Below are positions 805 to 60,721 of a stretch of 64,000 nucleotides of DNA, one piece after another. The translations under genes and the position numbers were made by a program. Origin of the DNA: an uncultured Acidobacteriota bacterium (GTDB lineage Bacteria; Acidobacteriota; Vicinamibacteria; Vicinamibacterales; UBA2999); NCBI GenBank assembly GCA_963807405.1, contig CAWEBU010000006.1, positions 1,726,527 to 1,790,526 of the forward strand, written 5' to 3'. Each line of letters starts with the position of its first letter. Positions within the stretch are counted from its first letter, which is position 1. Under the pieces are notes generated by a model. That model was given only the letters and a program-made list of their open reading frames with translations. It was not told the DNA's origin and searched no databases.

Positions 805-815
805 GTCGGAGTGCC

Positions 816-2216: not shown

Positions 2217-2243
2217 GGTCGTCTGCTTCCCTGTGACTGAGAC

Positions 2244-6425: not shown

Positions 6426-6429
6426 GGCG

Positions 6430-7845
6430 TTACGCCTCCGCCCTGGCTGCCGTCGTGTCGGCGGCGCGGTTCAGGTCGAGGGCGCCGGTGCTGTCACCGA
6501 AGCTCCGCACGTCGATGTCGAGCGCCTGCAGCGCCGGCAGCATGGCGTTGGCCATCGGCGTGCCGTCGGCGGCGCGGACGTGCAGGTTGCCCTTGAGGCG
6601 TCCGCCGGCATGCCCGGCGAAGAACAGCGGGCAGCGCTTGTGGTTGTGCATGTTCGAATTGCCCATCGCCGACCCGTAGACGACCAGGCTGTTGTCGAGC
6701 AGCGTGCCCTCGCCATCGGGCGTGTTCTGCAGCTTGCCGAGCAGGTACGGGATGAGGCTGACGTGATAGACGTTGATCTTCTGGAAGTCGCGGATGCGGT
6801 CCTCCCGCTCCTGGTGGTGCGAGGCGGTGTGGAACGCGGTCGACGAGCTGTTCGGCCCGAACACGCGGTTCGACACGTCGCGACTGAGCTTGAAGGCGAA
6901 GTTGCGCGTGATGTCGCTGGCAAACGCCACCACCTGCAGGTCGAACATCAGCTTGACGTGCTCTTCCCACGAGTCGGGCACGCCGATCGGGGCACCCGGC
7001 AGCTCACGGGCGTCGCCGCTCGAGTTCTGCCCCTCGACCTTCTGGATGCGGCGTTCGATCTCGCGTACGTCCTCGAGGTACTCGGTGAGCCGGCGCTGGT
7101 CGGCCACCCCCAGGCGCCCCTTCAGATCGCCGACCGACTCGGCCACGAAGTCGAGGATGCTGCGGTCGTCGCGCCGGCGGGTGCGCCGTGCCTCCGGCGT
7201 CGTGCCGACGCCGAACAGCTGGTCGAACACCGAGCGCGGATCGCGGATCATCGGCAGCGGCTCGGTCGGCGAGGCCCAGCTGATGGTGTCGGTGTAGACG
7301 CACGAGTAGTTGTAGGAGCAGCCGCCGGCCTGGTCGACGTTCTCGATGCACAGCTGCATCGACGGGATCGGCGTGTCCTGCCCGTAGCGCCGGGCGACGA
7401 TCTGATCGAAGGAGGTGCCGGCGAACACGTCCGAGCCCTGCGTCTGCTTGGGCTTGGCCTGGGTCAGGAACACGGCGGCGGAACGGAAGTGGTCGGCCCC
7501 GATCTCGGGGGCGCTGAAGGCTTCGGCGTTGCGGCAATCGGTGTTGCTGACGATGGTCAGGTGGTCGCGGAAGGGCTCGAGCGAGGCCATCGCCGTGGGA
7601 CCGAGATCGAAGGCGTTGCCGGCGGCGGCCGGCGCCCACAGGTTCTGCGCCGCGCCGTAGGTCGTGCTGCCGGCCGCGCCATGCACCATCTCGAGGGCGA
7701 TCAGCCGGACCTTGCGGTCGACGGCCTTGGCGTGGGCGGTGCGGGCCGGGACCATCGCGTCCAGGAACGGCAGGGCCACGGTGGCGCCGATGCCGCGCAG
7801 CGCCGCGCGTCTCGACAGGTGCGTCTTCGTGAGGAAAGTTGCCAT
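6430..7845 (-). CDS. Tat-signal HXXSHH / DUF1552 family protein, module C
   Basis: 471-aa ORF. Leader THLSRRAALRGIGATVALPFLDAMVP. Motifs FHTASHH and NMHNHKRCPLFFAGHAGG. Confidence 0.85.
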   Translation of the reverse strand: MATFLTKTHLSRRAALRGIGATVALPFLDAMVPARTAHAKAVDRKVRLIALEMVHGAAGSTTYGAAQNLWAPAAAGNAFDLGPTAMASLEPFRDHLTIVSNTDCRNAEAFSAPEIGADHFRSAAVFLTQAKPKQTQGSDVFAGTSFDQIVARRYGQDTPIPSMQLCIENVDQAGGCSYNYSCVYTDTISWASPTEPLPMIRDPRSVFDQLFGVGTTPEARRTRRRDDRSILDFVAESVGDLKGRLGVADQRRLTEYLEDVREIERRIQKVEGQNSSGDARELPGAPIGVPDSWEEHVKLMFDLQVVAFASDITRNFAFKLSRDVSNRVFGPNSSSTAFHTASHHQEREDRIRDFQKINVYHVSLIPYLLGKLQNTPDGEGTLLDNSLVVYGSAMGNSNMHNHKRCPLFFAGHAGGRLKGNLHVRAADGTPMANAMLPALQALDIDVRSFGDSTGALDLNRAADTTAARAEA

Positions 7846-7896
7846 GAGATCGATGTCCCTGAACCGTGGTCTCGTTGAGCCGCCAGCCCCTGGCCG

Positions 7897-10407
7897 CTAG
7901 TGTCGCCGCGCCTCTTCCGTGTTCGTTGGCGCGGCGGTCCGAATGATGCTCTTCTGGAACGGATCGCTCGCCACCACGCCCTGCACGAACGCCGCAACCT
8001 TGTAGTCCTGCCGGGCCGCGGTCCGGATGATGGCCCGGACGGCCGGCATGTCCGAGGCCTCGATGCGGCGGCCGAGGGCATAGGTCATCAGGTGCTCGGT
8101 GAAGCTGAGGAGAAACGCGTCCTTGTGCTTGATGAGGGCGCTGCGCAGGCCGCCGGCTCCCTCCATCCTGGTGCCGTCGTAGAGGTCGCCCACGGCATCG
8201 ACCGGCACGCCGCTGTCCTTGATCCGGTAGCGGCCGGTGGCGTCGAAGTGCTCGAGCGCGAGGCCCAGCGGATCGATCACCTTGTGGCACGACATGCAGG
8301 CCGGGTTGCTGCGGTGGGTCTCCATGCGCTCGCGCACCGACAGCACCTTGCCGGCGCTGGTGCCCTGCGTCTCTTCGAGCGTCGGGACATTGGGCGGCGG
8401 CGCCGGCGGCGGCGAGCCGAGCAGCACCTCCATGATCCACTTGCCCCGTTGCACCGGCGACGTGCGGTCGGCAATCGACGTCAGGGTCAGCACGCTGCCG
8501 TGGCCGAGGATGCCGCGGCGCTCGGCCGGCAGCGCCACGCGCCGGAACCGGTTGCCGATGACGCCGCCCACGCCGTAGTGCCGCGCCACGCGTTCGTTGG
8601 CGTAGGTGTAATCGGCGGTCAGCAGATCGAGCACGCTCTTGTTCTCGCGGACCAGGCTGGCCACGAACAGCTCGGTTTCGGTGTGCAGCGCGTCGGCCAG
8701 CGTGCGGTCGTAGTAGGGATAGAGGATCGGATCCGGCGAGACGTCGTCGAGGTCCTGCAGGCGCAGCCACTGCGACGCGAAGCGGGTCGACAACGCTTCG
8801 GCGCGTTCATCCGCGAGCATCCGGGAGGCCTGGGCGGCGAGCGCGCCGGGCGCGCTCAGGCGCCCCTGTCCGGCCAGGGTCTGCAGCGTCTTGTCGGGGG
8901 CCGCCCCCCAGATGAAATAGGACAGGCGCGACGCCAGTTCGGCGTCGCCCAGCCGATAGGGCTGGCCCGGCCGCGCCGTGGCCGGCGTGTCTTCGAGGCG
9001 GAACAGGAACTGCGGGCTGGCCAGGATCGCCTCGACCGCCTTGGTGATGCCCTTCTCGAACGAGTCGCCGTCCTTGCCGGCCTCGTAGAAGCGCATCAGC
9101 CGGTCGGTCTCGCGGTCGCTCGGCGCGCGGCGGAAGGCCTGGGTGGCGAGGCCCCGTACGATCGAGGAGGCGCAGGCGGGCTCATCATCCGCGCTGGTCG
9201 GCCGGCAGGTGAAGATCTTGCGGCGGCTGACCGTGTCCGACACGCCGGTCACCCGGTGCGGACCGACGACGGCGAGGTTGCGCAGGTGCGGCAGCGTCGT
9301 GATGCCGACCGCGATCCCGATCTCGGTATCGGCCATCGTGTGGTCGATGGGCGCCACCAGGTCGTTGACCGGGCCCTCGAAGCGCTGCAGGAACGCCGCC
9401 GTCACCCGCTGCGGGCCGGCCTGCACGTAGATCGGCGTCGTCTTGAGCGACAGACTCGACGTCGTCTCGTTCATCCGATGATCGATGGCGAAGATCGCGG
9501 CGCGTTCGCCGTTGATCGAGACCTCGATCTGCTCGCCCCGGGCCGTGTTGCCGAACAGCATCCCGAGCGGCTCGGCGAAGAAGTCCATGCGGAAGGTGTA
9601 CTCGCCGTCGGCCGGGAAGGTGTGAACGACCGAGAGGCCGCCGCGGGTGCCGAGCGGCGCGCCCGCGGCGCGGGCCAGCTGCGAGGCGGTCTTCGGCAGG
9701 CTGTAGGTCGACTCGCCGGCGGCGCTGTCGGGGTCGCCCACGGCCAGGGCGGTGACGCGGCTGGCCGCGCGCAGATAGCCTTCGAGCAGGGCTGGCGAGA
9801 ACGCCTGCGCGTCGGCCACGTTGTCGAAGCCCTGGCTGATGGTGTCGGGCGGCAGGAGCGGCGCGACGTCCACCTCGACTCCCAGCAGGTCGTTGACGGC
9901 GCGCGCGTACTCGGCGCGGTTCAGGCGCTGGAACGGGCGCCAGCCCGGATCGGGATTGGCGGCCGCGTGCTCGTCCATCCGCGCTTCGAGCGCGCCGACG
10001 AGCGTGTCGAGGGCCCCGTCCGGTGGACGCTTCGCCCCGGCTGGCGGCATCATGCCGGCGCGCAGCTTGCGCACCATCTTCTCGACGACCTCGGGCGACT
10101 CCTGCGCCCGCATCGCGTTGAAGCCGGCCAGCGACAGGCCGCCGGCCTTGGCACGCTCGCTATGGCAGCCACTGCAGTAGGTGGCGACCATCTCGGTCTG
10201 GGCCGCCGGACTCAGTGCGGGAGCGGCCGCCGTCGCCGTCGTGCGCGGTGCGACGATCCGGGCCGGACCAGCCACGGCCGTGCCACGCGGCGCGGCACTG
10301 GCGGCGGGCGTGGTTTGCGGGACAGGACCACCCGCGGCTGCGAGTCCTGCGACTGCCAGCCCTGCTGCCGCGGCGGCCGCCAGGGCCACCGTCACGCTCC
10401 GATGCAT
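7897..10407 (-). CDS. Multi-domain c-type cytochrome (PSD / DUF1592 type), module C
   Basis: ATG at 10407..10405 (MHRSVTVALAAAAAAGLAV...), in frame with the 3' part of the 1260-aa track ORF. CSGCH haem motif, QRLNRAEYA block and NPACMSCHKVIDPLGLALEHFD. Confidence 0.85.
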   Translation of the reverse strand: MHRSVTVALAAAAAAGLAVAGLAAAGGPVPQTTPAASAAPRGTAVAGPARIVAPRTTATAAAPALSPAAQTEMVATYCSGCHSERAKAGGLSLAGFNAMRAQESPEVVEKMVRKLRAGMMPPAGAKRPPDGALDTLVGALEARMDEHAAANPDPGWRPFQRLNRAEYARAVNDLLGVEVDVAPLLPPDTISQGFDNVADAQAFSPALLEGYLRAASRVTALAVGDPDSAAGESTYSLPKTASQLARAAGAPLGTRGGLSVVHTFPADGEYTFRMDFFAEPLGMLFGNTARGEQIEVSINGERAAIFAIDHRMNETTSSLSLKTTPIYVQAGPQRVTAAFLQRFEGPVNDLVAPIDHTMADTEIGIAVGITTLPHLRNLAVVGPHRVTGVSDTVSRRKIFTCRPTSADDEPACASSIVRGLATQAFRRAPSDRETDRLMRFYEAGKDGDSFEKGITKAVEAILASPQFLFRLEDTPATARPGQPYRLGDAELASRLSYFIWGAAPDKTLQTLAGQGRLSAPGALAAQASRMLADERAEALSTRFASQWLRLQDLDDVSPDPILYPYYDRTLADALHTETELFVASLVRENKSVLDLLTADYTYANERVARHYGVGGVIGNRFRRVALPAERRGILGHGSVLTLTSIADRTSPVQRGKWIMEVLLGSPPPAPPPNVPTLEETQGTSAGKVLSVRERMETHRSNPACMSCHKVIDPLGLALEHFDATGRYRIKDSGVPVDAVGDLYDGTRMEGAGGLRSALIKHKDAFLLSFTEHLMTYALGRRIEASDMPAVRAIIRTAARQDYKVAAFVQGVVASDPFQKSIIRTAAPTNTEEARRH

Positions 10408-10478
10408 GCGTTTCGCCTCCGCGGACGTGCCACGTGTGCCGCCGCCCCGAGCCCCGGAACCCGGTTCCCGGGCCCCGC

Positions 10479-11879
10479 CTAGATTGCCGTCGTCGCGGGC
10501 GCCCGGTTCAAATCCATCGCGCCCGTGCTGTCGCCGAACGAGGTGAAGTCGTTCAGGCCGAGCATGTGCATCACGCTCAGCATCGCGTTCGCCATCGGGG
10601 TGCCGTCGGCCGCCTTGATGTGCATGTTGCCCTTCAGCTGGCCACCGGCATGACCGGCCAGGAACAATGGGCAGCGCTTGTGGTTGTGCACGTTGGAGTT
10701 GCCCATCGGCGATCCGTAGAGCACGAGCGTGTTGTCGAGCAGGTTGCGCTCGCCGTCGGGCGTGTTCTTCAGCTTGTTCAGGAAGTAGGGGATCATCCCG
10801 ATGTGGTACAGGTTGATCTTCTGGAAGTCGCGGATGCGCTCGTCCCGGTCCTGATGGTGTGAAGCCGAGTGGAAGGCCGTCTTCACGCCGCTGTCGCTGA
10901 AGACGCGGTTGCTGGCGTCGCGGCCGAGCTTGAACGAGAACACCCGCGTGATGTCGCTGGCGAAGGCAATCGCCTGCAGATCGAACATCAGCTTGATGTG
11001 CTCCTCGAACGAGTCGGGCACGCCAACCGGCGCGCCGGGCAGCGCCCGCTCGTCGCCGCTGCTGTTGAACGACTCGGTCTTCTGGATGCGCCGTTCGATC
11101 TCGCGCACGTCCTCGAGATAGTCGCCGAGCCGGGCCTGGTCGGCCGCGCCCAGTTCCCGCTTGAGGCGCGACACGTCGGACGTGATCCAGTCGAGGATGC
11201 TCCTGTCCTCGGCACGGCGTTCGGCCCGCGCCTGCGGCGTGGCGCCCACGCCGAACAGCTGGTCGAAGGCCACCCGCGGATCGCGGATCATCGGCATCGG
11301 GTCGGTCGGCGACGACCAGCTGATGGTGTCGGTGTAGACGCACGAGTAGCCGTAGGAGCAGCCGCCGGCGGCATCGACGTTCTCGATGCAGAACTGCATC
11401 GACGGAATCGGCGTGTCCTGCCCGAACTTCTGGGCGTAGTACTGGTCGAGCGAGGTGCCGACGCGGACGTCGGAGCTCTGGGTCTGCTTCGGATGGAGCT
11501 GGGTGAGGAACACCGCGCTCGAGCGGAAGTGATCGCCGCCGATCTCCGGCAGCTCGAAGGCTTCGGCGTTCTTGACGTCGGTGTTGCTGATGATCGTCAG
11601 GTAGTCGCGCAGCGGGTCGAGCGGCTTGAGCGCCGACGGCGACAGGTCGAAACCATTGCCGGTGGCGGCCGGTGCCCACATGTTCTGCTCGATGCCGAAG
11701 GCGGTGCTGCCGGCCGAGCCGTGCACCATCTCGATGCAGGCGAGCCGCACCTTGCCGGCGGCCGTCTGGGCCAGCGCCGTGCGCGCCGGCACCATCGCCT
11801 CGAGGAACGGCAGGGCCACGGTGACACCGAGGCCCTTCAGGGCAGCGCGCCTGGACAAGTGCTTCTGGGTGATGAACAT
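10479..11879 (-). CDS. Tat-signal HXXSHH / DUF1552 family protein, module B
   Basis: 466-aa ORF. Leader KHLSRRAALKGLGVTVALPFLEAMVP. Motifs FHSASHH and NVHNHKRCPLFLAGHAGG. Confidence 0.85.
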   Translation of the reverse strand: MFITQKHLSRRAALKGLGVTVALPFLEAMVPARTALAQTAAGKVRLACIEMVHGSAGSTAFGIEQNMWAPAATGNGFDLSPSALKPLDPLRDYLTIISNTDVKNAEAFELPEIGGDHFRSSAVFLTQLHPKQTQSSDVRVGTSLDQYYAQKFGQDTPIPSMQFCIENVDAAGGCSYGYSCVYTDTISWSSPTDPMPMIRDPRVAFDQLFGVGATPQARAERRAEDRSILDWITSDVSRLKRELGAADQARLGDYLEDVREIERRIQKTESFNSSGDERALPGAPVGVPDSFEEHIKLMFDLQAIAFASDITRVFSFKLGRDASNRVFSDSGVKTAFHSASHHQDRDERIRDFQKINLYHIGMIPYFLNKLKNTPDGERNLLDNTLVLYGSPMGNSNVHNHKRCPLFLAGHAGGQLKGNMHIKAADGTPMANAMLSVMHMLGLNDFTSFGDSTGAMDLNRAPATTAI

Positions 11880-11981
11880 CGTGTCTCCGTCTCCGGCTGA
11901 TCCTACGGTATTTTCGCCCCGTTGTGGGCCACGCCCCGGGCGAGTCTCATTCGGCGCCAGCCCCGCGGGCCGGCGTCACCA

Positions 11982-14552
11982 TCAGTGTCGCGCCGCCGGC
12001 GCCGTCGCGGTCGTGTCCGGCGCGTCGATGCGGCTCATGCGGAACGCCTGGCTGGCCACGATGCCCTGCAGGAACGACTGCACCTTGTAGTCGTCGGCCG
12101 CCGCGGTCTGGATGATCTCGCGGATCGTCGGCATGTCGTAGGACTCGATACGGCGCCCGATCGCGTAGGTCATGAGGTGCTCGGTGAAGCTGAGCAGCAC
12201 CGCGTCCTTGTGGCGCAGCAGCGCGCTCCGCAGGCCGGCCGGTCCATCGAGCCTGGTGCCGTCGTAGAGGTCGCCCACCGGGTCGACCCCCACTTCGTTG
12301 TCCTTGATGCGCCAGGCGCCGGTGACGTCGAAGTTCTCGAGCGCCAGGCCGAGCGGGTCGATCACCTTGTGACACGACATGCACGCCGGGTTGGCCCGGT
12401 GCTGTTCCATGCGCTCCCGCACCGACAGGGTGCGGCCGCCGGCCGTGCCCTTGGTGTCGTCGAGGGCCGGGACGTTGGGTGGCGGCGCCGGCGGCGGCGA
12501 GCCGAGCAGCACTTCCATGATCCACTTGCCGCGCAGCACCGGCGACGTCCGGTCGGCGATCGAGGTGAGCGCCAGCACGCTGCCGTGACCGAGGATGCCG
12601 CGGCGATTCGGGTCGGTGACGGCCACCCGGCGGAACGCGTTGCCGGTCACGTTCGGCAGCCCGTAGTGAATCGCCACCCGCTCGTTCACGAACGTGTAGT
12701 CGCTGTCGAGCAGCTCGAGCACGCTACGGTTCTCCCGCATCAGGCTGTCGACGAAGAGCTCGGTTTCGCGCCGCAGTCCCCGCGCCAGCGTGTCGTCGTA
12801 GTCGGGATACTGCAGGTAGTCGGGAATCAGCTTGTCGAGGTCCTGCAGGCGCAGCCACTGCGCCGCGAAGCGGGTCGACAGCGCCTCGGACCTGCGGTCG
12901 GCGAGCATCCGCTCGACCTGCTGACGCAGGGCCGCCGGCGTGCGCAGCTGGCCGGCCGCCGCCGCCTTCAGCAGTGCGGCATCCGGCACCGTGCCCCACA
13001 GGAAGAACGACAGCCGGGACGCCAGGTCCTGGTCGTTCAGGCGGAACGGCTGGCCGGCACGCATCGTGGCCGGCACTTCTTCCAGGCGGAACACGAAGCG
13101 CGGGCTGGCGAGAATCGCCTGCAGCGTGTAGCGGATGGCCTGCTCGAAGTCGCCCTTGGTACGCCCTTCGGCGTAGAACCCCATCAGCGTGTCGAGCTCG
13201 GCCTGCGGCAGCGGGCCGCGGAACGCGCGCGTCGCCAGCGCGGTGACGATCTCGCTGGCACACACCGGCTCCTCGGCCGCCGTGGTCGGACGGCAGCTGA
13301 AGATGCGGCGCCGGCTCACCGAGTCCGACACGCCGGTCACGGTGTAGGGGCCGTTGACGGTCATGTCGCGCAGGTGCGGCAGCAGCGTCACCCCGAAGCT
13401 CATGCTGACGTCGGCCAGCGTGTTCTCGGCCGGCACGAGCAGGTCGTCTATCGGCGCCTCGAACTTGCGGATGAAGGCCGCCGACAGCTTGTGCGGACCG
13501 GCCTTGACGTGGATGCGCACCGTCTTCGGATCGAGGCTGTTCACGGGATCCGATTCGCTCATCCGCTCGTTCAGGGGAATGACCGCCACGCGCTCGCCGT
13601 CGATGGCGACGTCGATCTCTTCCTTGATGTTCATGACGCTCATCGTCGAGCGCCCGTAGAGGCCGCCGAGCGGCTCGTTGTGCAGGTTCACGCCGATGAC
13701 GTAGTCGCCGTCGGCCGGGAAGATGTGCGTGACGACGATGCCGCCGCGAGTGCCGAGCGGCGCCCCTTCGACCTGGCGCATCTGCGACATCGTGCGGCCC
13801 ACCTTGTAGGTGACGGCCGCCGGGGTGGCGTCGCGGTCACCGACCGCCAGACGGCTGATCTGGCTGGCGGCGCGCATGTAGCCCTCGAGCATCGTCGGCG
13901 ACATGCCCTGGACATCGGCGACGTTGTCGAAGCCGTGGCTCATCGTGTCGGCCGGCAGGAAGGCCGCGACGTCGACCTCGATGCCGAGCAGGTCGCGCAC
14001 CGAGCGCGCGTACTCGGCGCGGTTCAGGCGCTGGAACGGCCGCCGGCCCGGGTTGGGATTGGTCGCCGCGTGCTCGTCCATGCGCGACTCGAGCGCCGTC
14101 ATCAGCTGGTCGAGGGACGCGGCATCGGGACGGCGGGCGCCGGCCGGCGGCATCATGCCCGCGCGCAGCTTGCGGATGATCTTCTCGACCACCTCCGGCT
14201 GCTCCTGCGCGCGCATGGCGTTGAAGCCGGCAAGCGACAGCCCGCCGGCCTTGCCCACGGTCACTGTGACAGGTGGCGCAGTAGGTGGCGACGAGCTCGG
14301 TCTGTCCGGCCGCCGGGAGCGGCGCGCTGTCCTGGCCGTGCGACGACGCCGGCGCGGGCGGCCGCGCCTTGGCGCGCGTCGGCGGCCGCACCTTGGCGCG
14401 CGGCGGCGGACCGGGTCTGTCACCGGTGCGGCCGTCGAGACGGCACGCGCCGCCGGCGGCGCCTGGGCGGCACTCACCGCCAGCCCGAGGGCCAGCGCCG
14501 CGATGCCCGTTGCTGTCGCTGTTGCTCGTCGTGTCGTCATGACTCGTCGCAT
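11982..14552 (-). pseudogene. Multi-domain c-type cytochrome (PSD type), module B; N-terminal haem motif lies out of frame between two frameshifts
   Basis: The long ORF frame carries the signal peptide (MRRVMTTRRATATATGIAALALGLAVSAAQA) and everything from KAGGLSLAGFNAM onward. The segment ...TELVATYCATCHSDRG is only readable in another frame (track ORF 13837..14391). An extra base near 14253 and a second shift near 14400-14415 are implied. The C-terminal CMSCH motif is intact. Confidence 0.7.
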
Positions 14553-14587
14553 GCCGTTCCGCTGTCGTGCGGCCGCCCGTGCGGCTC

Positions 14588-16365
14588 CTAGCACGACACG
14601 CACTTGTGATTGTTCTTCGACCCGAGCTTCTCGAGCAGCTGCAGCGCCTCCGGATACGGCTGCGTGCGCTGCACCGGGCCGTTGGCCATGTCGGCCGTCG
14701 ACTGCCCCTCGCGGTTGATCCGCTTGACGTCGGCGCCCTTGGACACCAGGTACTCGATCATCGCGACGTCGCCGCGGGCCGCCGCCTGGTGCAACGCGGT
14801 GTTGCCTTCGTGATCGGCCGCGTTGACGTCGGCGCCGAGCTCCTCGACCAGGTATTTGACCGCCGTCATCATGCCGGTCGGCGCGTAGCGATGCGAGTTG
14901 GCCGCGAAGCCCTCGCCGTAGCCGACGCCGGCGGCCGCCTGCAGCGGAGTGACGCCCGGGCCACCCACCGGCAGGGCCGGCAGCCCTGAGGTGTCGCCGC
15001 CATCACGCACGCCGGCGTCGCCGACGCGCGGACGGCCGGCCGGCTTGGTGGTCGGAATGGAGGGATCGGCACCGGCCGCGACCAGCATCTTCATCGCGTC
15101 GATGTCCGAGGCGTAGGCCGCGCGCCAGAACGGCGTGGCGCCGATCTCGTCCACGCCCGAGAGGTCGAAGTTGTAGCCCGAGTACCACACCTTGTACTTG
15201 ACCCGGGCATTCGGGTCGGCGCCCTTGTCGATGAGGGCCTGCAGGGTGTCGAGATAGCTGGCCTTCTGCTGCAGGTAGGAGCGCGGCTGCGGATACAACG
15301 CCTTCGGTGCCCACTGCACGTTGAGCACGGCGTAGAGCGGCGTCACGCCGTTGTGGCTGGCCGCGTTCGGGTTGGCGCCCTTCTCGAGCATGAAGAGAGC
15401 CACGTCGAAGTGGCCGTTGGCGATCGCCAGCACCAGCGGACTCGTCTGATCGCCGCCGCTGACCTGATTGATGTCGGCGCCTGCATCGAGCAGCACCTTG
15501 ACGGCGTCCATCGAGCCCTGACGGGCGGCGAACAGCAGCGGCGTCATGCCGCCCTGCCAGCCCACGAGTTCGTTGTAGCGGAAGTTGCGGTCGATGCCCG
15601 CCTTGCCCTGCGGGGGGCCGCGGCGACCGCCCGCCGGTGCGGCGGCCGGAGCGGCAGCGGCGGCGGGGCGGCGGCCGGCGCGCCGGCGCGCGGCTCCGCG
15701 GCCTGGCCCTGCTGCTGTTGCTGCTGCTGGCGGAAGAACTCCTCTTCGGGCGACGTCAGGGCCGCCAGGTTGACCACCTTCGACGACGCCTTCACGCTGG
15801 CCCCGGCGGCGATCAGCGCCTGCATGACCTCGACGCGGTTGTTGGCGGCCGCGAACATCAGCGGCGTCTGCTCCATCGAGGACTCCTTCGCCTCGATGTC
15901 CGCGCCGCCCGCGATCAGCGCCTTCACGGCCTCGACGCTGCCGGACGCGGCGGCCAGCATCAGCGGCGTGGTGCCGGTCGAGGTCGCCAGCGTGGCGTCG
16001 GCACCGGCCTCGAGCAGCAGCTTCACGACCGGGGCGTGCCCGTTGCGCGCCGCGATGACCAGCGGCGTGTTGCCGCCGAGGCGGGTCGTCGCCTTGACGT
16101 TGCCACCGGCGTAGACGAGCATCTGCGCCAGCTCGGCATCGTTCTTGAGCGCCGCCCAGTGCAGCGCCGTCGTGCCGTCGCCCTGTGCGGCGTTGACGTC
16201 GTTGCCCTGCTGCAACAGCGTCTTCACCGCGGCGCGGTCACCGGCCATCGCCGCATCCGCCACCGGCGCGGCCGACTGGGCGCCGAGCGCCACGGTGAAG
16301 GCCAGCGCGGCCACGCCCACCAGGGCGGCACCACGCGTCACTGCATATCCGAATCGAAGCTGCAT
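14588..16365 (-). pseudogene. Exported ankyrin-repeat protein, module A, frameshifted in the low-complexity linker (pseudogene or homopolymer error)
   Basis: The N-terminal ORF 15544..16365 (signal peptide, ANK repeats, QQQQQQ linker) and the C-terminal ORF 14588..15565 (ending NNHKCVSC) are in different frames. Adding one base to the G6 run at 15612..15617 restores ...PPQGKAGIDRNFRYNELVGWQGG... Confidence 0.7.
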
Positions 16366-17792
16366 TGCCGTGTCTCCCTGAAGGCTAGAGGGCCGCGGTC
16401 GCCGACGGCGCCGCGTTCAGAATCGGTCACGCCCGTGCTGTCGCCGAACGTGGTCGTATCGGACAGTCCGAGCAGGTGCATCGCGCCGAGCAGCGGGTTC
16501 GCCATCGGCGTCCCGTCGGCCGTCTTGATGTGGAGGCCGCCCTTGAGGCGGCCGCCGGCGTGTCCGGCGAAGAACAGCGGGCAGCGCTTGTGGTTGTGGA
16601 CGTTCGAGTTGCCCATCGGCGAGCCGTAGATGATGAGCGTGTTGTCGAGCAGGTTGCCGTCGCCCTCGGGCGTGTTCTTCAGCTTGTCGAGGAAGTACGG
16701 CAGCTGGGCGACGTGGTAGGTGTTGATCTTCTGGAACTCGCGGATGCGGTCCTCGCGATCCTGGTGATGCGACGCCGGGTGGAAGCCCGCATCGAGCCGC
16801 TCTCCGGATACGCGCGGCTCGAGCCGTCGCGTCCCATCTTGAACGAGAACACGCGCGTGATGTCGCTCGCGAACGCCACCGCCTGCAGGTCGAACATCAG
16901 GCTGCACGTGCTCGCCGAAGGAGTCCGGCACGCCGACGGGCGCGCCCGGCAGTTCGCGCGGATCGCCGCTCGAGTTCGAGGCCTCGATCTTCTGGATGCG
17001 GCGCTCGATCTCCCGCACGTCGTCGAGGTACTCGCCGAGCCGGGCCTGGTCGGCCGGGCCGAGATCCCGGCGCAGCCGGGCCACCTCGCCGGTGATGAAG
17101 TCGAGGATGCTCCGGTCACGCTGGCGGCGGGTCGCCCGTTCGGCCGGCGTGCCGCCGACGCCGAACAGCTGATCGAAGGCGGCGCGCGGATCGCGGATCA
17201 TCGGCAGCGGCTCGTCCGGCGAGGCCCAGCTGACGGTGTCGGTGTAGACGCAGGAGTAGCCGTAGGCGCAGCCGCCGGCCTGGTCGATGCTCTCGATGCA
17301 CAGCTGCATCGACGGAATGGGCGTCTCGTGGCCGACCTTCTGGGCGTAGAACTGGTCGAGCGAGGTGCCGGCCAGCACGTCGCTGCCCTGCGTCTGCTTG
17401 GGATGGCTCTGGGTGAGGAACACGGCGCTCGAGCGGAAGTGGTCGCCGCCGATCTCCGGCAGCTCGAACGCCTCCGCGTTGCGGACGTCGGTGTTGCTGA
17501 CGATGGTCAGGTGGTCGCGGAACGACTCGAGCGGCGCCAGGCTGGTCGGCGCGAGATCGAAGTCACGGCCGGTGGCCGCCGGCGACCACATGTTCTTCTC
17601 CAGGCCGATGGCCGTCGCGCCCGCCGAGCCGTGCACCATCTCGATGGCGGCGAGGCGGACCTTGCCGGCCGCGGTCTGGGCCAGCGCCGTGCGCGCCGGC
17701 ACCATCGCTTCGAGCAGCGGCAGCGCGATGGTGACGCCCAGCCCCTTGAGGGCCGTGCGGCGCGAGAGGTGCTTCTGGGTGATGAACATCAT
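16338..17792 (-). pseudogene. HXXSHH / DUF1552 family protein, module A, with a compensated internal frameshift pair and a C-terminal indel
   Basis: The ORF stays open (484 aa). About 36 codons (about 16795..16904) read QPDVRPAGGGVRERHH... instead of the family sequence LMFDLQAVAFASDITRVFSFKMGRD, which is present in another frame (track ORF 16679..17119). An extra base near 16421 replaces the family C-terminus and moves the stop from 16385 to 16338. Confidence 0.7.
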
Positions 17793-17819
17793 CGGACTCC
17801 TATGGCGGACGTCGAAGCG

Positions 17820-20321
17820 TTACTGGTGGGCCGGCGCCGGCGCGGTGGTAGTCCGCTCGGCGCCTTCCACACGACTCATGCGGAACGCGGGCGACGTGAC
17901 GACTCCGAGCAGGTAGGCCGACATCCGGTTGTCCTGCTTGCCGGCCTCGCGGACGATCTTGCGGACCGCCGGCATGTCGAACGATTCCATCCTGCGGCCG
18001 GTGGCGTAGGTCATGAGGCGCTCCGTGAAGCTCAGGAGGATCGCATCCTTGTGCTTCAGCAGCGCATCGCCCAGGTCAATCGGGCCGTTCATCTGCGTGC
18101 CGTCGTAGAGCTCGCCGACGGCATCGACCGGCACTTCGCTGTCCTTGATGCGCCAGGCGCCGGTCACGTCGAAGTTCTCGAGGGCCAGGCCGAGCGGGTC
18201 GATCACCTTGTGGCACGACATGCACGCCGGGTTGGCCCGGTGCTGCTCCATGCGCTCGCGCACCGAGAGCAGGCGGCCGCCGGCCGCGCCACCGGTCTCT
18301 TCGAGCGCCGGCACATTGGGCGGCGGCGCCGGCGGCGGCGAGCCGAGCAGCACCTCCATCACCCACTTGCCGCGCTGCACCGGGGAGGTCCGATCCGCCA
18401 CCGACGTCAGCAGCAGCACGCTGCCGTGACCGAGGATGCCGCGGCGGCCGGGCGGCGTCGGCACCCGGCGGAACTCGGCCCCCATCACGTTCGGAATGCC
18501 GTAGTGGCGCGCCACGCGCTCGTTGACGAACGTGTAGTCGGCGCGCAGCAGGTCGAGCACGCTGCGGTCCTCGCGCACGATGCTGTCGAAGAAGCGCTCG
18601 GTCTCCTCGACCAGGTTCTCGGCCAGCGTGTAGTCCCAGTGCGGATAGAGCAACGCATCGGGACGGATCTTCTCGACGTCCTGCAGGCGCAGCCACTGAC
18701 GCGCGAACCGCGTCGAGAGCGCCTTCGACCGCGGGTCGGCGATCATGCGGCGCACCTCGGCTTCGAGACCCGCGTTGGTCTTGAGCGCGCCGGAGGTGGC
18801 GGCGGCCACCAGTGCCGCGTCGGGGCCGCTGCCCCACAGGAAATAAGACATCCGCGACGCCAGATCCAGATCGGCCACGCGGAACGTGTCACCGACCTTG
18901 GCCGTGGCCGGCGGCTGCTCCAGGCGGAACACGAAGCGGGGGCTGGCCAGCAGCGCCTCGAGGGCGGTCTCGATGCCGGCTTCGAAATCGGCGCCGTCAC
19001 GGCCCTTCTCGTAGAAGCCGATCAGCCCCTGGATCCCGGCGGTGGAAACCGGCTCGCGGTAGGCCTGCGAGGCCAGGCGCTTCAGGATCTCGGTGGCGCA
19101 CGGCAGCTCCTCGGCGAGCGATGTGGGCCGGCAGCTGAACACCTTGCGGCGGCTCACCGTGTCGGACACGCCGGTGACCTGGAACGGACCGCTGATGCTG
19201 AAGTCGCGCACGTGCGGCAGGGTCGTGATGCCGAAGCCGCTCCCGATCTGCGAATCGGCGAGCGTGTAGTCCTGGGGCGCCAGGATGTCGTCGACCGGCG
19301 CCTCGAACTGGCGCAGGAACGCGGCCGACACGCGCTGCGGACCAGCGCTCACGTGCACGCGCGGCGACTGCAGGTTCATGCCGTTGACGTCCTGCTCGCT
19401 CATCGACGGATCGATGTCCATGATCGCGACCCGCGAGCCGTTGATCGAGATTTCGATCTTCTCGCCGCGGGCGATGCTGCCGTAGAGCTGTCCGGTCGGA
19501 ATCGAGTGCAGCATCACGCGGAAGCTGTACTGGCCGTCGGCCGGGAACACGTGCACGAGCGAGACGCCACCGCGTGTGCCGAGCGGCGCCCCTTCGATGT
19601 GCACCATCTGCGACTGCGTGCGCGGCACCTTGTAGGTCGCCTCGGTCGGCGCCGAATCGGGATCGCCGAGCGCGAGCTGCGTGATGCGGCCGGCCGCGCG
19701 CAGGTAACCCTCCATCAGCGTCGGCGAGAAGCTCTGAGCGTCGGCCACGTTGTCGAAGCCGTTGCTGATCGTGTCGGCCGGCAGGAACGCCGAGACGTCG
19801 ACGTCGATGCCGAGCAGGTTCTTCACGGCGACCGCGTATTCCGCGCGGTTCAGCCGCTGGAACGGCCGCCAGCCGGGGTTCGGATTGACCGCCGCCAGTT
19901 CGTCCATCCGCGATTCGAGCGCCGTCGTCAGCGCGTCGATGGTGGCGGCATCGGGCCGCCGTGCACCGGCCGGCGGCATCATGCCGGCGCGCAGCTTGCG
20001 GATCATCTTCTCGATGACTTCCGGCTGCTCGTGCGCTTTCATGGCACTGAAGTCGGCGAGCACGAGCCCGCCGGCCTTGCCACGCGTGCTGTGGCAGGTG
20101 GCGCGGTACTGGGTGACGAGCTCGCTCTGCGCGGCAGCGGACAGTCCGCTCGCGTGCGAGGGCGTCGGGGCCTGCGCGGCGGCGCGACGGGCCGGGGCGG
20201 GGGCGGCCGCTCGCGTGGCCACCTCGGCCGCGACGGGCGGGGTCTGGCGCCCGGCGGCAGCCACCACGAGCCCGGCTCCGGCCACGGCGGTGATCGCGAT
20301 GGCGAACGTGAACTGTCTCAT
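17820..20321 (-). CDS. Multi-domain cytochrome-like PSD protein, module A (first haem-motif Cys replaced by Arg)
   Basis: 833-aa ORF with a GGAGG RBS upstream of the ATG at 20321. The N-terminal motif reads YRATCH (CGC at 20103..20105) where the paralogs have YCATCH. The C-terminal CMSCH motif is intact. Confidence 0.85.
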   Translation of the reverse strand: MRQFTFAIAITAVAGAGLVVAAAGRQTPPVAAEVATRAAAPAPARRAAAQAPTPSHASGLSAAAQSELVTQYRATCHSTRGKAGGLVLADFSAMKAHEQPEVIEKMIRKLRAGMMPPAGARRPDAATIDALTTALESRMDELAAVNPNPGWRPFQRLNRAEYAVAVKNLLGIDVDVSAFLPADTISNGFDNVADAQSFSPTLMEGYLRAAGRITQLALGDPDSAPTEATYKVPRTQSQMVHIEGAPLGTRGGVSLVHVFPADGQYSFRVMLHSIPTGQLYGSIARGEKIEISINGSRVAIMDIDPSMSEQDVNGMNLQSPRVHVSAGPQRVSAAFLRQFEAPVDDILAPQDYTLADSQIGSGFGITTLPHVRDFSISGPFQVTGVSDTVSRRKVFSCRPTSLAEELPCATEILKRLASQAYREPVSTAGIQGLIGFYEKGRDGADFEAGIETALEALLASPRFVFRLEQPPATAKVGDTFRVADLDLASRMSYFLWGSGPDAALVAAATSGALKTNAGLEAEVRRMIADPRSKALSTRFARQWLRLQDVEKIRPDALLYPHWDYTLAENLVEETERFFDSIVREDRSVLDLLRADYTFVNERVARHYGIPNVMGAEFRRVPTPPGRRGILGHGSVLLLTSVADRTSPVQRGKWVMEVLLGSPPPAPPPNVPALEETGGAAGGRLLSVRERMEQHRANPACMSCHKVIDPLGLALENFDVTGAWRIKDSEVPVDAVGELYDGTQMNGPIDLGDALLKHKDAILLSFTERLMTYATGRRMESFDMPAVRKIVREAGKQDNRMSAYLLGVVTSPAFRMSRVEGAERTTTAPAPAHQ

Positions 20322-26306: not shown

Positions 26307-26359
26307 GGCGGCATCGTATGTCCGGCGCCGTCGCGACCGTGCACTACAATCGCGCCCTG

Positions 26360-27694
26360 ATGCCAGCGCGTCGCGCCGCGGTTCGCCTCCTGATGCTGGC
26401 CGTGGCCAGCGCCGGACTGGCGTCGTGGCCGGCCTCGGCCGGCGCCCAGGCGCTCACCATCGTGGCGCCCGCCGCGCCCGGCGGCGGCTGGGACCAGACG
26501 GCGCGGGCGCTGCAGCGTGCGTTCGCCTCCTTGACGCCGCCGCTCTCGGTGCAGGTCGAAAACGTCCCCGGCGCGGCCGGCACGATCGGGCTCGCGCGCT
26601 TTGCCAGCGCCGATCGCGGACGGCCGGACGCGCTGCTCGTGACCGGGCTGGTGATGGTCAGCGGGATCGTCGCCACGCGCTCGGTCGTGTCGCTGGCCGA
26701 CGTCACGCCGATCGCCCTGCTGACGGGCGAGCATGAGGTGATCGTCGTGCCCGCCGCGTCGCCGCACCGCACGCTGCAGGATCTCCTGGCAGCATTCCGC
26801 GCCGCTCCACGCAGCGTGTCGTGGGGTGGTGGCTCGGCTGGCGGCACCGACGACCTGCTGGCGCGTCTCGTGGCGGAGGCCGTCGGCGTGCCGCCCGCGG
26901 AGGTCAACTACGTGGCCTTCTCCGGCGGCGGTGAAGCGCTGGCCGCCCTGCTCGGAGGCCAGGTCACGGCCGGTGTGAGCGGGCTCGGCGAGTTCGCGCC
27001 GAGCATCGAGACCGGGCAGCTGCGCGCGCTCGCCATCTCTTCGCCGACCCGGGTCGCGGAACTCGACGCGCCGACGCTGCGCGAGGCCGGGGTGCCGCTC
27101 GATCTCGCCAACTGGCGCGCGGTCGTCGCGCCGCCCGGGGTCAGCGATATCGAGGCCACCGCCCTGGCGGCGCGCGTGCGGGAGGCCGTGCAGAGCGCGG
27201 CCTGGCGCGACACGCTCGCGCGCACCGGCTGGACCGACCTCTATCAGGACGGTCCGCAGTTCCGCCAGTTCCTGCTGGCCGAGCAGGCGCGCGTCAACGC
27301 CGTGCTCGCACGGCTGGCCGAGGGCGGCCCGGCCACGGCGAGCGCGTGGACGCCCACCGCCGCGACCGCACCGGCCGTCGCCCTGGCGTGCACCGCGCTC
27401 CTCGCGATCGGCTACGCCTGGCAGCGACGCGATGCCACACCCGAAGGTGTCGCACCCGGCGGGACGCGGCGCGTGACGATGATCGTTGGCGCCACGCTGC
27501 TCCACGCCCTGATCCAGCCGCTGACTGGTTTCGTGCCCACCGCCACGCTGGTCTTCGCCGCCGGCGCCGCCGCGCTCGGCAGCCACCGCCCGGCCCGTGA
27601 TGCCGCCGTCGGCGCGGCGGTCAGCATCGTCATCGCGGTGGTCTTCGCGGCCGGCCTCGGCGTGCCGCTGCCGCTCGGCGTGTGGTGGCCATGA
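26360..27694 (+). CDS. Tripartite tricarboxylate transporter substrate-binding protein (TctC/Bug family) fused to a TctB-like 4-TM segment
   Basis: Signal peptide [21 protein letters not shown]. Bug-family body (GGGWDQTAR..., [21 protein letters not shown]). The last ~125 aa form four hydrophobic helices. The stop overlaps the tctA ATG (ATGA). Confidence 0.75.
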
Positions 27695-29211
27695 ACGCGT
27701 TCGCGTCGCTCGCCGACGGCTTCGTGCAGGCGCTCACGCCGGCGCACCTCGCGTGGGGCGCGATCGGGGTCACGCTCGGGACGGCGGTGGGCGTCCTGCC
27801 CGGGATCGGCCCGGCCCTCACCGTGGCGCTGCTGCTGCCCGCCACCTACGGACTCGATCCGACCAGCGCGTTCATCATGTTCGCCGGCATCTACTACGGC
27901 GGCATGTACGGCGGATCGACGACGTCGATCCTCCTGAACACGCCGGGCGAGAGCTCCACCATCGTCACGGCGCTCGAAGGGCATCAGATGGCGCGGCGCG
28001 GGCGGGCCGGCGCGGCGCTGGCCACGTCAGCCATCGGCAGCTTCATCGCCGGCACGCTCGGCACCATCGGCCTGACGGTGGCCGCTCCGGCCATGGCGCA
28101 GCTGGCGCTCGCCTTCGGGCCGGCCGAGTACTTCGCCCTGATCCTGCTCGCCTTCGTGGCCACCTCGACGCTGCTCGGCGAGTCAAGGACGGCCGGCCTG
28201 CTCGGTCTGTTCGCCGGGGTGGTGCTGGGGCTGGTCGGCATCGATCGGCTGAGCGGCGAGGCGCGCCTCACCTTCGGCGTGCCCTACCTGCTCGACGGGC
28301 TCGACCCGACGATTGTCGCCATCGGGCTGTTCGCCGTCGGCGAGACGCTCACGCTCGCCGCCGCGACGCCGCGCGGCCACGAGGTGCTGGCCCTCGAGCG
28401 CACGCGCTGGATGACGCGCGACGACTGGGCGCGTTCCTGGAAGCCGTGGCTGCGTGGCACGGTCATCGGCTTCCCGCTCGGCGCGCTGCCGGCCGGCGGC
28501 GCCGAGCTGCCGACGCTGCTCTCGTACGCGGTCGAGAAACGACTGGCACGACGGCCCGAGGAGTTCGGCGCGGGCGCGATCGAAGGCGTGGCCGGTCCTG
28601 AGGCGGCCAACAACGCCTCGGCCGCCGGCACGCTCGTGCCGCTGCTGACGCTCGGCCTGCCGGCCTCGGCGACGGCGGCCGTCCTGCTCGCGGCGTTCCA
28701 GCAGTTCGGCCTGCAGGCGGGACCGCTGCTCTTCGAGCGCGAGCCGGAGTTCGTGTGGACGCTCATCGCCAGCCTCTACGTGGGCAACGTGCTGCTGCTC
28801 GTGCTCAACCTGCCGCTGGTGCGGTTGTGGGTGCAGCTGCTGCGCATTCCGGCACCCTGGCTCTACGGCGGCATCCTCGTCGTGGCGACGGTCGGTGCCT
28901 GGAGCGTGCACCGGGCGGCCGGCGACATCGTGGCGCTCGTCGTCATCGGCCTGCTCGGCTTCGTCCTGCGCCGCGTCGGCTGTCCGCTGGCGCCGGTCAT
29001 GATCGGCTTCATGCTCGGACCGGCCGCCGACATGCACCTGCGGCGGGCGCTGGCGGTCGGCGACGGCGCCTGGACGTCGCTCGTCCTGAGGCCGGGCGCG
29101 GGCGCGCTGCTCGCCATCTGCGCGCTGGTCGCCGTCGGCCCGTCACTGTGGCGGACATGGCGGCGGGACCGGCCGCCGGCCGGCGGCGTCCAAGGGACAG
29201 GGCTACACTGA
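27691..29211 (+). CDS. tctA: Tripartite tricarboxylate transporter large permease TctA
   Basis: About 506 aa. Motifs [35 protein letters not shown] and AGPEAANNA are typical TctA blocks. Confidence 0.85.
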
Positions 29212-54802: not shown

Positions 54803-54844
54803 CTGAAAACTAAAGACGCCGCACGCCGGCCGCGCGGTTCCCGG

Positions 54845-56692: not shown

Positions 56693-56703
56693 CGCAGGCT
56701 CTC

Positions 56704-58107: not shown

Positions 58108-58139
58108 GCTCGGTCTCCCCCGTCGATCGTGTGGCTGCG

Positions 58140-60621: not shown

Positions 60622-60721
60622 CAGAAAGTCAGGTCATAGTAGCAGCTTGCAGGGCCCGGCGGGGGATGGCGCCGGGGTCTACCGACCGTGAAATCCAGAG
60701 ACAATCAGCGACGTCGCGCGG

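What the first reader, a model, noticed from the sequence alone, without database searches (positions are those of the whole stretch)
14253..14415. PSD-B: the haem-binding CxxCH segment is isolated between two opposite frameshifts
The signal peptide and the protein from KAGGLSLAGFNAM onward share one frame. The segment ...PPRAKVRPPTRAKARPPAPASSHGQDSAPLPAAGQTELVATYCATCHSDRG (CxxCH codons at 14266..14280) is only in a second frame.

An extra base at about 14253 (cgt ggg C aag gcc, versus CHSxR[AG]KAGG in the paralogs) returns to the main frame. A first shift must lie near 14400..14415.

In the ORF as written, the haem motif is replaced by an Arg-rich nonsense stretch (RRRAPRCGRRRAPRRGRPRRRRR...). 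This is the second compensated frameshift pair in the array, so the full-length ORF masks loss of a key motif.
Basis: seen in the sequence. Interest (0 to 1): 0.55.

Follow-up and report, generated by a model that had tools for sequence, protein, structure and literature searches.

The report
Probable assembly indels hiding a haem motif
Two single-base indels about 160 bases apart put the N-terminal haem-binding CxxCH motif of a DUF1592-type cytochrome gene out of frame. All relatives are in frame and neighbouring genes carry similar indels, so this is most likely a long-read assembly error rather than biology.

Summary
In the minus-strand gene 11982..14552, the signal peptide and the body from KAGGLSLAGFNAM share one frame. 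The segment ...PPRAKVRPPTRAKARPPAPASSHGQDSAPLPAAGQTELVATYCATCHSDRG (CxxCH codons at 14266..14280) reads only in a frame offset by one base.

DNA alignment with orthologs places a +1 base in cgtGGGcaag (14253-14256). A -1 event lies in the variable linker, strictly within 14400-14470 and most likely 14400-14420.

All 17 orthologs (80-90% identical, Vicinamibacterales MAGs) keep CxxCH in frame with the body. Sixteen of them also show the signal peptide in that frame; the other is cut by its contig end. Third-position GC is 1.00 in the haem frame. Repairing the two indels restores the Cytochrome_CBB3 and PSCyt1 Pfam hits.

The window holds at least 9 frameshifting indels, 6 of them within 2.65 kb (14253-16905). 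One is a second compensated pair in the DUF1552 gene. After frame repair there is no excess of amino-acid changes.

A nanopore MAG relative (L017), compared with a short-read counterpart (L003, 96% nt identity), shows the same artefact type, including a -1/+1 pair 128 nt apart.

Verdict: most likely consensus indel errors in a long-read MAG (the contig is 3.7 Mb). A real, very recent compensated frameshift is not excluded without reads. Interest is low.

The parts
11982..14552 (-). PSD-B gene as written (ATG at 14552; the mechanical ORF extends to a GTG at 14603). It is a DUF1592-family protein with domains PSD3-PSD5-PSD4-PSCyt3-PSD2.
   Evidence: The public call of the same sequence is a truncated 760-aa protein (P0001).
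14460..14552 (-). Signal-peptide coding part (MRRVMTTRRATATATGIAALALGLAVSAAQA), in the main frame.
   Evidence: It matches the signal peptides of orthologs (MTTRRVTATTAGAVLVAIGLAVSAEQA). No signal-peptide predictor was run.
14400..14470 (-). Bracket for the first (-1) frameshift, most likely 14400-14420. One possibility is CCCC reduced to CCC at 14415-14417.
   Evidence: Frame translations, GC3 profile, alignment. The exact base cannot be determined because the linker is not conserved.
14254..14417 (-). Segment whose ancestral reading frame is offset by one base from the ORF as written. It encodes the linker plus LPAAGQTELVATYCATCHSDRG.
14357..14409 (-). 24-nt tandem repeat, 2.2 copies, encoding (P)PRAKVRP / PTRAKARP in the haem frame. 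Its period keeps the frame, so it is not the cause of the shift.
14266..14280 (-). N-terminal CxxCH codons (tgc gcc acc tgt cac), out of frame in the ORF as written.
   Evidence: Repair restores Cytochrome_CBB3 (28.2 bits, cutoff 27) and PSCyt1 (24.4 bits, cutoff 22).
14253..14256 (-). Second (+1) frameshift: one extra base in cgt GGGC aag. Orthologs have cgc gcS aag, and paralog PSD-A has cgt ggc aag.
12369..12383 (-). Second CxxCH (ACMSCHKV) in the PSCyt3/DUF1588 domain, intact in the main frame.
16793..16905 (-). Second compensated pair, in DUF1552-A (16338..17792): +1 at about 16902 (CAGCCTG versus CAG-CTG) and -1 at about 16793 (TCG-ATG versus TCGAAT/C). It scrambles the conserved LMFDLQAVAFASDITRVFSFKMGRDGSSRAYPESG segment.
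16415..16428 (-). Third indel in DUF1552-A: +1 (GATTCT versus GA-TCT). It is uncompensated, changes the last ~18 codons and pushes the stop downstream.
15653..15669 (-). Uncompensated -1 in ankyrin gene B. The gene is split into ORFs 15544..16365 and 14588..15565, whereas orthologs have one 600-620-aa ORF.

Best explanation
The gene is an ordinary DUF1592 / 'planctomycete-specific' cytochrome c family protein. Its layout is signal peptide, N-terminal mono-haem cytochrome c domain, PSD3, PSD5, PSD4, PSCyt3 and PSD2, and it is paired with a DUF1552 gene. It belongs to a Vicinamibacterales (Acidobacteriota) genome.

In this assembly the consensus carries two single-base indel errors: -1 in the GC-rich linker at about 14400-14420, and +1 in a G-run at 14253-14256. 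Between them the true reading frame is displaced. Because off-frame stops are rare at 70% GC, the ORF stays open.

The organism's real gene most likely reads MRRVMTT...APVTDPGPPPRAKVRPPTRAKARPPAPASSHGQDSAPLPAAGQTELVATYCATCHSDRGKAGGLSLAGFNAM..., with an intact haem site.

Shown: the two frames, the position of the +1 base, in-frame orthologs, many other indels in the window, and the indel-dominated lesion spectrum.

Inferred: that the indels are consensus errors of a long-read (nanopore-type) metagenome assembly rather than mutations.
For: - All 17 orthologous loci (80-90% aa identity) have CxxCH in frame with the body. 16 of 17 also show the signal peptide in that frame; L006 is cut by its contig end. 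Nearly all of the ~60 closest database proteins carry PF13442; the self hit and a few others, mostly truncated calls, do not.
- The window has at least 9 frameshifting indels. There are three in DUF1552-A and one in ankyrin B. Ankyrin D is split at about 5720-5845 and the fifth PSD paralog at about 59886. An Amidohydro_3 gene is split at about 53350, with profile positions 2-233 and 227-472 in two frames. Six of the nine lie within 2.65 kb (14253-16905).
- After frame repair, the window's proteins show no excess of singleton changes at otherwise invariant columns: 2, 7, 7, 1 and 2, against 1-13 in nearly all orthologs. Natural decay should give far more substitutions than indels (established knowledge from bacterial mutation-accumulation studies). 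An indel-only spectrum is typical of long-read consensus error (PMC9262707).
- GC3 is 1.00 in the displaced frame and the repaired domain is highly conserved, so the sequence has not adapted to the new frame.
- Control: orthologous loci from short-read MAGs show no frame switches in five genes, apart from one in the ankyrin gene of L012. Nanopore-only 'MFD' MAG loci show many (L017 at least 6, L007 at least 4). L017 compared with the short-read locus L003 (96% nt identity) has 5 single-base indels in 3.6 kb, including a -1/+1 pair 128 nt apart. MFD MAGs are nanopore-only assemblies made with Flye and one round of Medaka (PMC12313526).
- This sequence sits on a 3,726,184-bp contig of an uncultured organism, with the same source signature (ncbi+ena) as the MFD MAGs. 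This implies long-read assembly.
Against: - No reads and no second assembly of this species are available. The best non-self protein is 90% identical and a metagenome scan across the site found nothing. The indels therefore cannot be shown directly to be errors.
- The sequencing platform of the window is inferred, not known.
- Indels are concentrated in one 2.65-kb stretch, which a uniform error model does not predict (P of about 0.013 for two pairs within 165 nt). Both close pairs happen to compensate (about 1 in 4 by chance).
- The neighbouring paralog PSD-A also lacks Cys1 of its CxxCH, through a unique T>C substitution. This coincidence would fit real loss of haem sites.
- One short-read MAG (L012) also shows a frame switch in its ankyrin gene.
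Confidence: 0.8

Rival explanations
1. The compensated frameshift is genuine and very recent. A -1 mutation in the linker inactivated the gene, or it arose together with a +1 mutation 160 nt downstream that restored the frame. The result would be a secreted PSD protein whose N-terminal haem site is replaced by an Arg-rich stretch. It could be part of the decay or divergence of one of five redundant Ank/PSD/DUF1552 modules.
For: - The sequence as given contains the indels.
- Lesions cluster in one module: PSD-A Cys>Arg, three indels in DUF1552-A, one in ankyrin B and two in PSD-B. This is what decay of an operon could look like.
- Five paralogous modules in the window give redundancy.
- The indels sit in short mononucleotide runs, where real slippage mutations also occur.
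Against: - No ortholog shares the indels.
- There is no relaxed-selection signal. Repaired proteins have background numbers of unique substitutions and no stop codons, and GC3 is still 1.00 in the old frame.
- Six indels with essentially no accompanying substitutions is the reverse of the natural mutation spectrum.
- The DUF1552-A pair scrambles 37 core residues just before the family's SHH motif, which is hard to reconcile with a selected, functional product.
- Unrelated genes elsewhere in the window are also split (Amidohydro_3).
- The same pattern appears in a nanopore MAG relative when compared with a short-read counterpart.
Confidence: 0.15
2. The consensus is chimeric because co-assembled strains were collapsed. 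Reads from two or more closely related strains differ by in-frame indels or dense substitutions in the linker. Polishing then produced offsetting -1/+1 errors, because total read length is preserved. This is a specific sub-type of the artefact explanation.
For: - The first shift lies in a hypervariable, repeat-containing linker.
- Errors are regionally clustered and the pairs sum to zero.
- Soil Vicinamibacterales populations are represented by many closely related MAGs.
Against: - The DUF1552-A pair lies in a conserved, non-repetitive segment.
- There is no direct evidence for strain mixture in the window.
- It cannot be separated from plain low-coverage consensus error without reads.
Confidence: 0.3
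3. Programmed ribosomal frameshifting or another recoding mechanism reads through both shifts and makes the haem-containing protein from the sequence as written.
For: The only support is that correcting the two frames yields a perfect family member.
Against: - Orthologs encode the protein in one frame, so there is no conserved recoding site.
- No slippery heptamer or stop-codon context is visible at either site.
- Two opposite programmed shifts in one gene are unknown in bacteria (own knowledge).
- Similar shifts occur in unrelated neighbouring genes.
Confidence: 0.01

Closest known systems
Indel and frameshift consensus errors in nanopore-only genome or MAG assemblies (Sereika et al. 2022, PMC9262707; MFD long-read MAGs, PMC12313526)
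   Same: There are single-base indels in short runs. Genes are split or truncated relative to all homologs. Many genes on the same contig are affected, and there is no accompanying excess of substitutions. The contig is megabase-sized and comes from an uncultured soil-type lineage. Relatives assembled the same way show the same lesions.
   Different: The platform of this window is not documented here. Two of the indel pairs happen to compensate, so a full-length ORF survives and simple length-based checks of the IDEEL type would not flag it.
'Planctomycete-specific' cytochrome c / PSD proteins (PSCyt1/Cytochrome_CBB3 + DUF1587 + DUF1595 + DUF1592 + DUF1588 + DUF1585) paired with DUF1552 (HXXSHH) genes
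   Same: Domain order, adjacent DUF1552 gene, signal peptide and two CxxCH motifs after repair all match. PSCyt3 genes next to a conserved gene of unknown function are described in Verrucomicrobia MAGs, with function unknown (PMC5615132).
   Different: As written, the N-terminal CxxCH is out of frame. The host is Vicinamibacterales rather than a PVC bacterium. Here the modules also include a large ankyrin-repeat gene.
Genuine compensated frameshift mutations in protein evolution
   Same: Two nearby indels of opposite sign leave the downstream frame intact and replace a short peptide segment.
   Different: Real cases are shared by descendants or populations and show adaptation of the new frame. 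Here the event is unique to one assembly. The old frame keeps perfect codon bias, and neighbouring genes carry uncompensated indels.

Membership tests
DUF1592/PSD-family cytochrome c protein | Pfam domain set PSD3 (DUF1587), PSD5 (DUF1595), PSD4 (DUF1592), PSCyt3 (DUF1588) and PSD2 (DUF1585), in that order | tested here: met
   all five domains score above their curated cutoffs (E from 1.7e-45 to 3.1e-19).
DUF1592/PSD-family cytochrome c protein | N-terminal cytochrome c domain with CxxCH in frame with the signal peptide and the body | tested here: not met
   As written there is no Cytochrome_CBB3 or PSCyt1 hit. The feature is met only after removing one base at 14253-14256 and adding one at about 14415 (28.2 and 24.4 bits, both above cutoff).
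DUF1592/PSD-family cytochrome c protein | Adjacent DUF1552 (HXXSHH) partner gene | tested here: met
   ORF 10479..11879 immediately downstream matches PF07586 at E = 2e-87. The same synteny is seen in orthologous loci.
DUF1592/PSD-family cytochrome c protein | Covalent haem binding and electron-transfer function | not testable with these tools
   The literature found gives no biochemical data for the family (PMC5615132 states that nothing is known about its function).
Long-read consensus indel artefact | Indels unique to this assembly and absent from all orthologs | tested here: met
Long-read consensus indel artefact | Many other genes on the same contig disrupted by single-base indels | tested here: met
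   At least 9 indels in 64 kb across six genes.
Long-read consensus indel artefact | Lesion spectrum dominated by indels, with no excess of substitutions | tested here: met
   singleton changes at invariant columns are within the range seen in orthologs.
Long-read consensus indel artefact | Assembly made from error-prone long reads; indels not supported by accurate reads | not testable with these tools
   The support is indirect. The contig is 3.73 Mb from an uncultured lineage, with the same source signature as nanopore MFD MAGs. An analogous nanopore MAG (L017) shows the same artefacts.
Genuine compensated frameshift or pseudogene | Relaxed selection or adaptation to the new frame | tested here: not met
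   GC3 is 1.00 in the old frame. The repaired domain is conserved. There is no excess of unique substitutions.
Genuine compensated frameshift or pseudogene | Presence in independent sequences of the same lineage | tested here: inconclusive
   No same-species sequence was found: the best non-self protein is 90% identical and the metagenome scan gave 0 hits.
Programmed ribosomal frameshift | Conserved shift site in orthologs with a slippery sequence | tested here: not met
   All orthologs are in a single frame. No slippery motif is visible at either site.

The most novel reading that the evidence does not exclude
The two indels are real and recent. One of five redundant Ank/PSD/DUF1552 modules in this Vicinamibacterales genome is losing, or has been selected to lose, its N-terminal haem site by a compensated double frameshift, while keeping its secretion signal and the remaining ~750 residues. 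The neighbouring paralog PSD-A independently lost Cys1 of the same motif (TGC>CGC). Together these would indicate lineage-specific dispensability of the N-terminal cytochrome domain in a family whose function is unknown.
Probability: 0.1. Interest if true: 0.35.

Novelty: not a real feature. Interest (0 to 1): 0.08.

Why it matters
If the indels are errors, as is most likely, the value is practical. Compensated indel pairs in high-GC long-read MAGs leave full-length ORFs. These pass length-based quality checks yet carry scrambled motifs: here a haem site in the PSD gene and 37 core residues in a DUF1552 protein. Motif-based inferences from such assemblies, such as 'this paralog lost its haem', need frame-aware comparison with orthologs. 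If the indels were real, they would be a small, recent example of motif loss in a redundant paralog of a family of unknown function. That would be of modest interest.

Tried and rejected
- Exact look-ups of the as-written ORF, of the public 760-aa call and of PSD-A returned no contig record. The cluster look-up gave no accession. The source assembly therefore could not be identified.
- A first automated tblastn frame-switch scan using stop-to-stop ORFs of related loci was too noisy, because of shadow ORFs at 70% GC and frameshifts in the query loci. It was replaced by a GC3-phase HMM, curated ortholog proteins and DNA alignments.
- The 24-nt tandem repeat in the linker was considered as the cause of the first shift and rejected. 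Its period keeps the frame and it has no internal indel.
- An alternative start with its own signal peptide in the haem frame was rejected. That frame has no hydrophobic N-terminal stretch upstream, and the signal peptides of orthologs match the main frame.
- The HMM-flagged segment 21124-21259 in the MsrA gene, and several adjacent-gene phase changes, proved to be linkers or ordinary gene boundaries rather than frameshifts. The neighbours involved were PNPOx, flavoprotein/M49, S58 and amylase/GDE.
- A metagenome scan for same-species DNA across the 14253 site, allowing either allele, gave no hits.
- Programmed frameshifting was rejected (see rival explanations).
Full report
**What is there.** The finding lies at the 5' end of a minus-strand gene (ATG at 14552, stop at 11982; the mechanical ORF extends to a GTG at 14603). 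Pfam places the gene in the DUF1592 / 'planctomycete-specific domain' family, with domains PSD3, PSD5, PSD4, PSCyt3 and PSD2.

The window carries five such genes. Each is followed by a DUF1552 (HXXSHH) gene, and several are preceded by a ~600-aa ankyrin-repeat gene. Three intact paralogs give weak to moderate N-terminal Cytochrome_CBB3 and PSCyt1 hits. This gene gives none. The family's function is unknown. PSCyt3 genes sitting next to a conserved gene of unknown function have been described in Verrucomicrobia MAGs (PMC5615132).

**Checking the observation.**
- The signal peptide (MRRVMTTRRATATATGIAALALGLAVSAAQA...) and everything from GKAGGLSLAGFNAM onward share one frame.
- ...GPPPRAKVRPPTRAKARPPAPASSHGQDSAPLPAAGQTELVATYCATCHSDRG is read only in the frame offset by one base.
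- The CxxCH codons are at 14280..14266.
- As written, the ORF reads RRRAPRCGRRRAPRRGRPRRRRRTARTARRSRRPDRPSSSPPTAPPVTVTVGKAGG.

The alternative-frame segment is the ancestral coding frame. Its third-position GC is 1.00 from about 14413 to 14300, and the main frame resumes at about 14250. The repaired N-terminus also aligns with an ortholog at E = 1e-72, with LPAAGQTELVATYCATCHSDRGKAGGLSLAGFNAM nearly identical.

DNA alignment with orthologs shows one extra base in CGT-GGGC-AAG at 14253-14256. Orthologs have CGC-GCS-AAG and paralog PSD-A has CGT GGC AAG.

The upstream -1 event lies in a linker that is not conserved in sequence or length and contains a 24-nt tandem repeat whose period keeps the frame. 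It can only be bracketed:
- Strictly, it lies within 14400-14470.
- It most likely lies within 14400-14420. APPAARAVSTAAPVTDP looks like the Ala/Pro/Thr-rich linkers of orthologs, and non-G/C third positions start to accumulate in the main frame after about 14408.

Removing one base and adding one restores the Cytochrome_CBB3 hit (28.2 bits, cutoff 27) and the PSCyt1 hit (24.4 bits, cutoff 22).

That the ORF remains open is not notable. In this 70% GC genome an offset frame has a 0.37 probability of containing no stop in 53 codons.

**Relatives.** A scan of species-representative genomes returned 79 loci, all from Vicinamibacterales or Acidobacteriota MAGs.
- In all 17 loci at 80-90% identity, CxxCH is in frame with the body.
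- In 16 of them the signal peptide is in that frame too. L006 is cut by its contig end.
- Nearly all of the ~60 closest database proteins carry PF13442. The self hit and a few others, mostly truncated calls, do not.
- The only 100% match is the public call of this very sequence: a 760-aa protein starting at MTVGKAGG, just after the second shift. It sits on a 3,726,184-bp contig with sources NCBI and ENA.
- No other sequence of the same species exists in the collections. The next best protein is 90% identical, and a metagenome scan across the site found nothing.

**The wider window.** A GC3-phase segmentation, followed by homology checks, shows that this is not an isolated event.

| Gene | Lesion |
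|---|---|
| DUF1552-A (16338..17792) | +1 at ~16902 and -1 at ~16793 |
| DUF1552-A | uncompensated +1 at ~16422 that rewrites the C-terminus |
| Ankyrin B | split by a -1 at ~15661; orthologs have one 600-620-aa ORF |
| Ankyrin D | changes frame at ~5720-5845 |
| PSD-E (fifth PSD paralog) | changes frame at ~59886 |
| Amidohydro_3 gene | split at ~53350, with profile positions 2-233 and 227-472 in different frames |

The first DUF1552-A pair is the 'other' compensated pair. It scrambles the conserved LMFDLQAVAFASDITRVFSFKMGRDGSSRAYPESG segment.

Together with the two indels in PSD-B, that makes at least 9 frameshifting indels in 64 kb. Six of them lie within 2.65 kb (14253-16905). By contrast hB, PSD-C, hC, PSD-D, hD and ankyrin E are intact.

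**Error or mutation?** Three lines of evidence favour consensus error.

1. *Lesion spectrum.* After frame repair, the window's five proteins in this region have 2, 7, 7, 1 and 2 singleton changes at columns that are otherwise invariant among 11-13 sequences. This is within the 1-13 range of nearly all orthologs. Natural gene decay produces many more substitutions than indels (established knowledge from bacterial mutation-accumulation work). Six indels with only background substitutions, no stop codons and perfect residual codon bias is instead the pattern of long-read consensus error (PMC9262707).

2. *Control loci.* Orthologous loci from short-read MAGs show no frame switches across the same five genes, apart from one in the ankyrin gene of L012. 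Loci from nanopore-only 'MFD' MAGs show many (L017 at least 6, L007 at least 4, L014 one). These MAGs were assembled with Flye and polished with one round of Medaka (PMC12313526). L017 aligned to a short-read locus at 96% nucleotide identity (L003) has five single-base indels in 3.6 kb. They include a -1/+1 pair 128 nt apart inside the ankyrin gene and two +1 events 184 nt apart in the PSD gene. Closely spaced indels, including compensating ones, are therefore a demonstrated property of this assembly type in these very genes.

3. *Contig size.* The window's contig is 3.7 Mb from an uncultured soil-type lineage. In practice that means long reads (inference).

**Caveats.**
- The platform is inferred, and there are no reads.
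- The indels are regionally concentrated. Under a uniform model, two pairs within 165 nt have P of about 0.013. At the local density of about 2.3 per kb, such spacings are expected, and both pairs compensating has roughly a 1-in-4 chance.
- A local coverage dip or collapsed strain variation would explain the hot zone, but this is speculation.
- PSD-A has CGC (Arg) where all ten closest orthologs have TGC (Cys1 of CxxCH). This coincidence would also fit real erosion of haem sites.
- Even as written, PSD-B keeps a second CxxCH in its PSCyt3 domain (12369-12383).

**Other readings.** Programmed frameshifting is rejected. Orthologs are in frame and neither site has a slippery motif. An alternative start in the haem frame is also rejected, because that frame has no signal-peptide-like stretch upstream.

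**Verdict.** The best-supported explanation (about 0.8) is that the 'isolated haem segment' results from two single-base consensus errors in a long-read MAG, and that the organism's gene is an ordinary in-frame family member. A genuine, very recent compensated frameshift retains about 0.1-0.15. A read pile-up, or polishing with accurate reads, over 14240-14430 would settle it.

Noticed in passing
window 20103-20105 (minus strand, PSD-A gene 17820..20321): PSD-A reads YRATCH: the codon is CGC where all ten closest orthologs (76-87% identity) and the other paralogs have TGC (Cys1 of the N-terminal CxxCH). It is a single T>C change unique to this assembly. It could be a substitution error or a real loss of one haem-attachment cysteine.
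   Followed up: partly
window 16338-17792 (minus strand): DUF1552-A carries three single-base indels relative to orthologs: +1 at about 16902 and -1 at about 16793 (a compensated pair that scrambles 37 conserved residues just before the SHH motif), and +1 at about 16422, which rewrites the C-terminus and extends the ORF.
   Followed up: yes
window 14588-16365, about 4679-6470, 58140-60633 and 52505-54809 (all minus strand): Four genes are split by uncompensated frameshifts: ankyrin B (~15661), ankyrin D (~5720-5845), the fifth PSD paralog (~59886) and an Amidohydro_3 gene (~53350). Both ankyrin breaks fall in the same low-complexity, GC-rich linker of the protein.
   Followed up: partly
window about 800-20300 and about 54800-60600: There are five tandem or nearby modules of ankyrin-repeat protein, DUF1592-type cytochrome and DUF1552, all on the minus strand. 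The order is conserved in Vicinamibacterales relatives. The function of the module is unknown.
   Followed up: partly
window 12369-12383 (and the equivalent sites in PSD-C and PSD-D): PSD-B, PSD-C and PSD-D each have a second, conserved CxxCH (PAC[MQ]SCH[KR]VIDPLG) inside the PSCyt3/DUF1588 domain, so these are potentially di-haem proteins. PSD-A and the C-terminal part of PSD-E were not scanned.
   Followed up: no
window 26318-27694 (+): One ORF carries both a TctC domain (residues 77-331) and a TctB domain (342-452), directly upstream of TctA (27682..29211). It is either a natural TctC-TctB fusion or another effect of an indel.
   Followed up: no
L017:3144-4455 versus L003: A nanopore MFD MAG locus, compared with a short-read locus at 96% nucleotide identity, has five single-base indels in 3.6 kb, including a compensated -1/+1 pair 128 nt apart. 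Its PSD ortholog is consequently annotated as a truncated 604-aa protein (P0064).
   Followed up: yes
L012:386-407: One short-read (k141) MAG locus also shows a frame switch in the linker of the ankyrin gene. This linker may therefore be prone to indels or mis-assembly whatever the platform.
   Followed up: no
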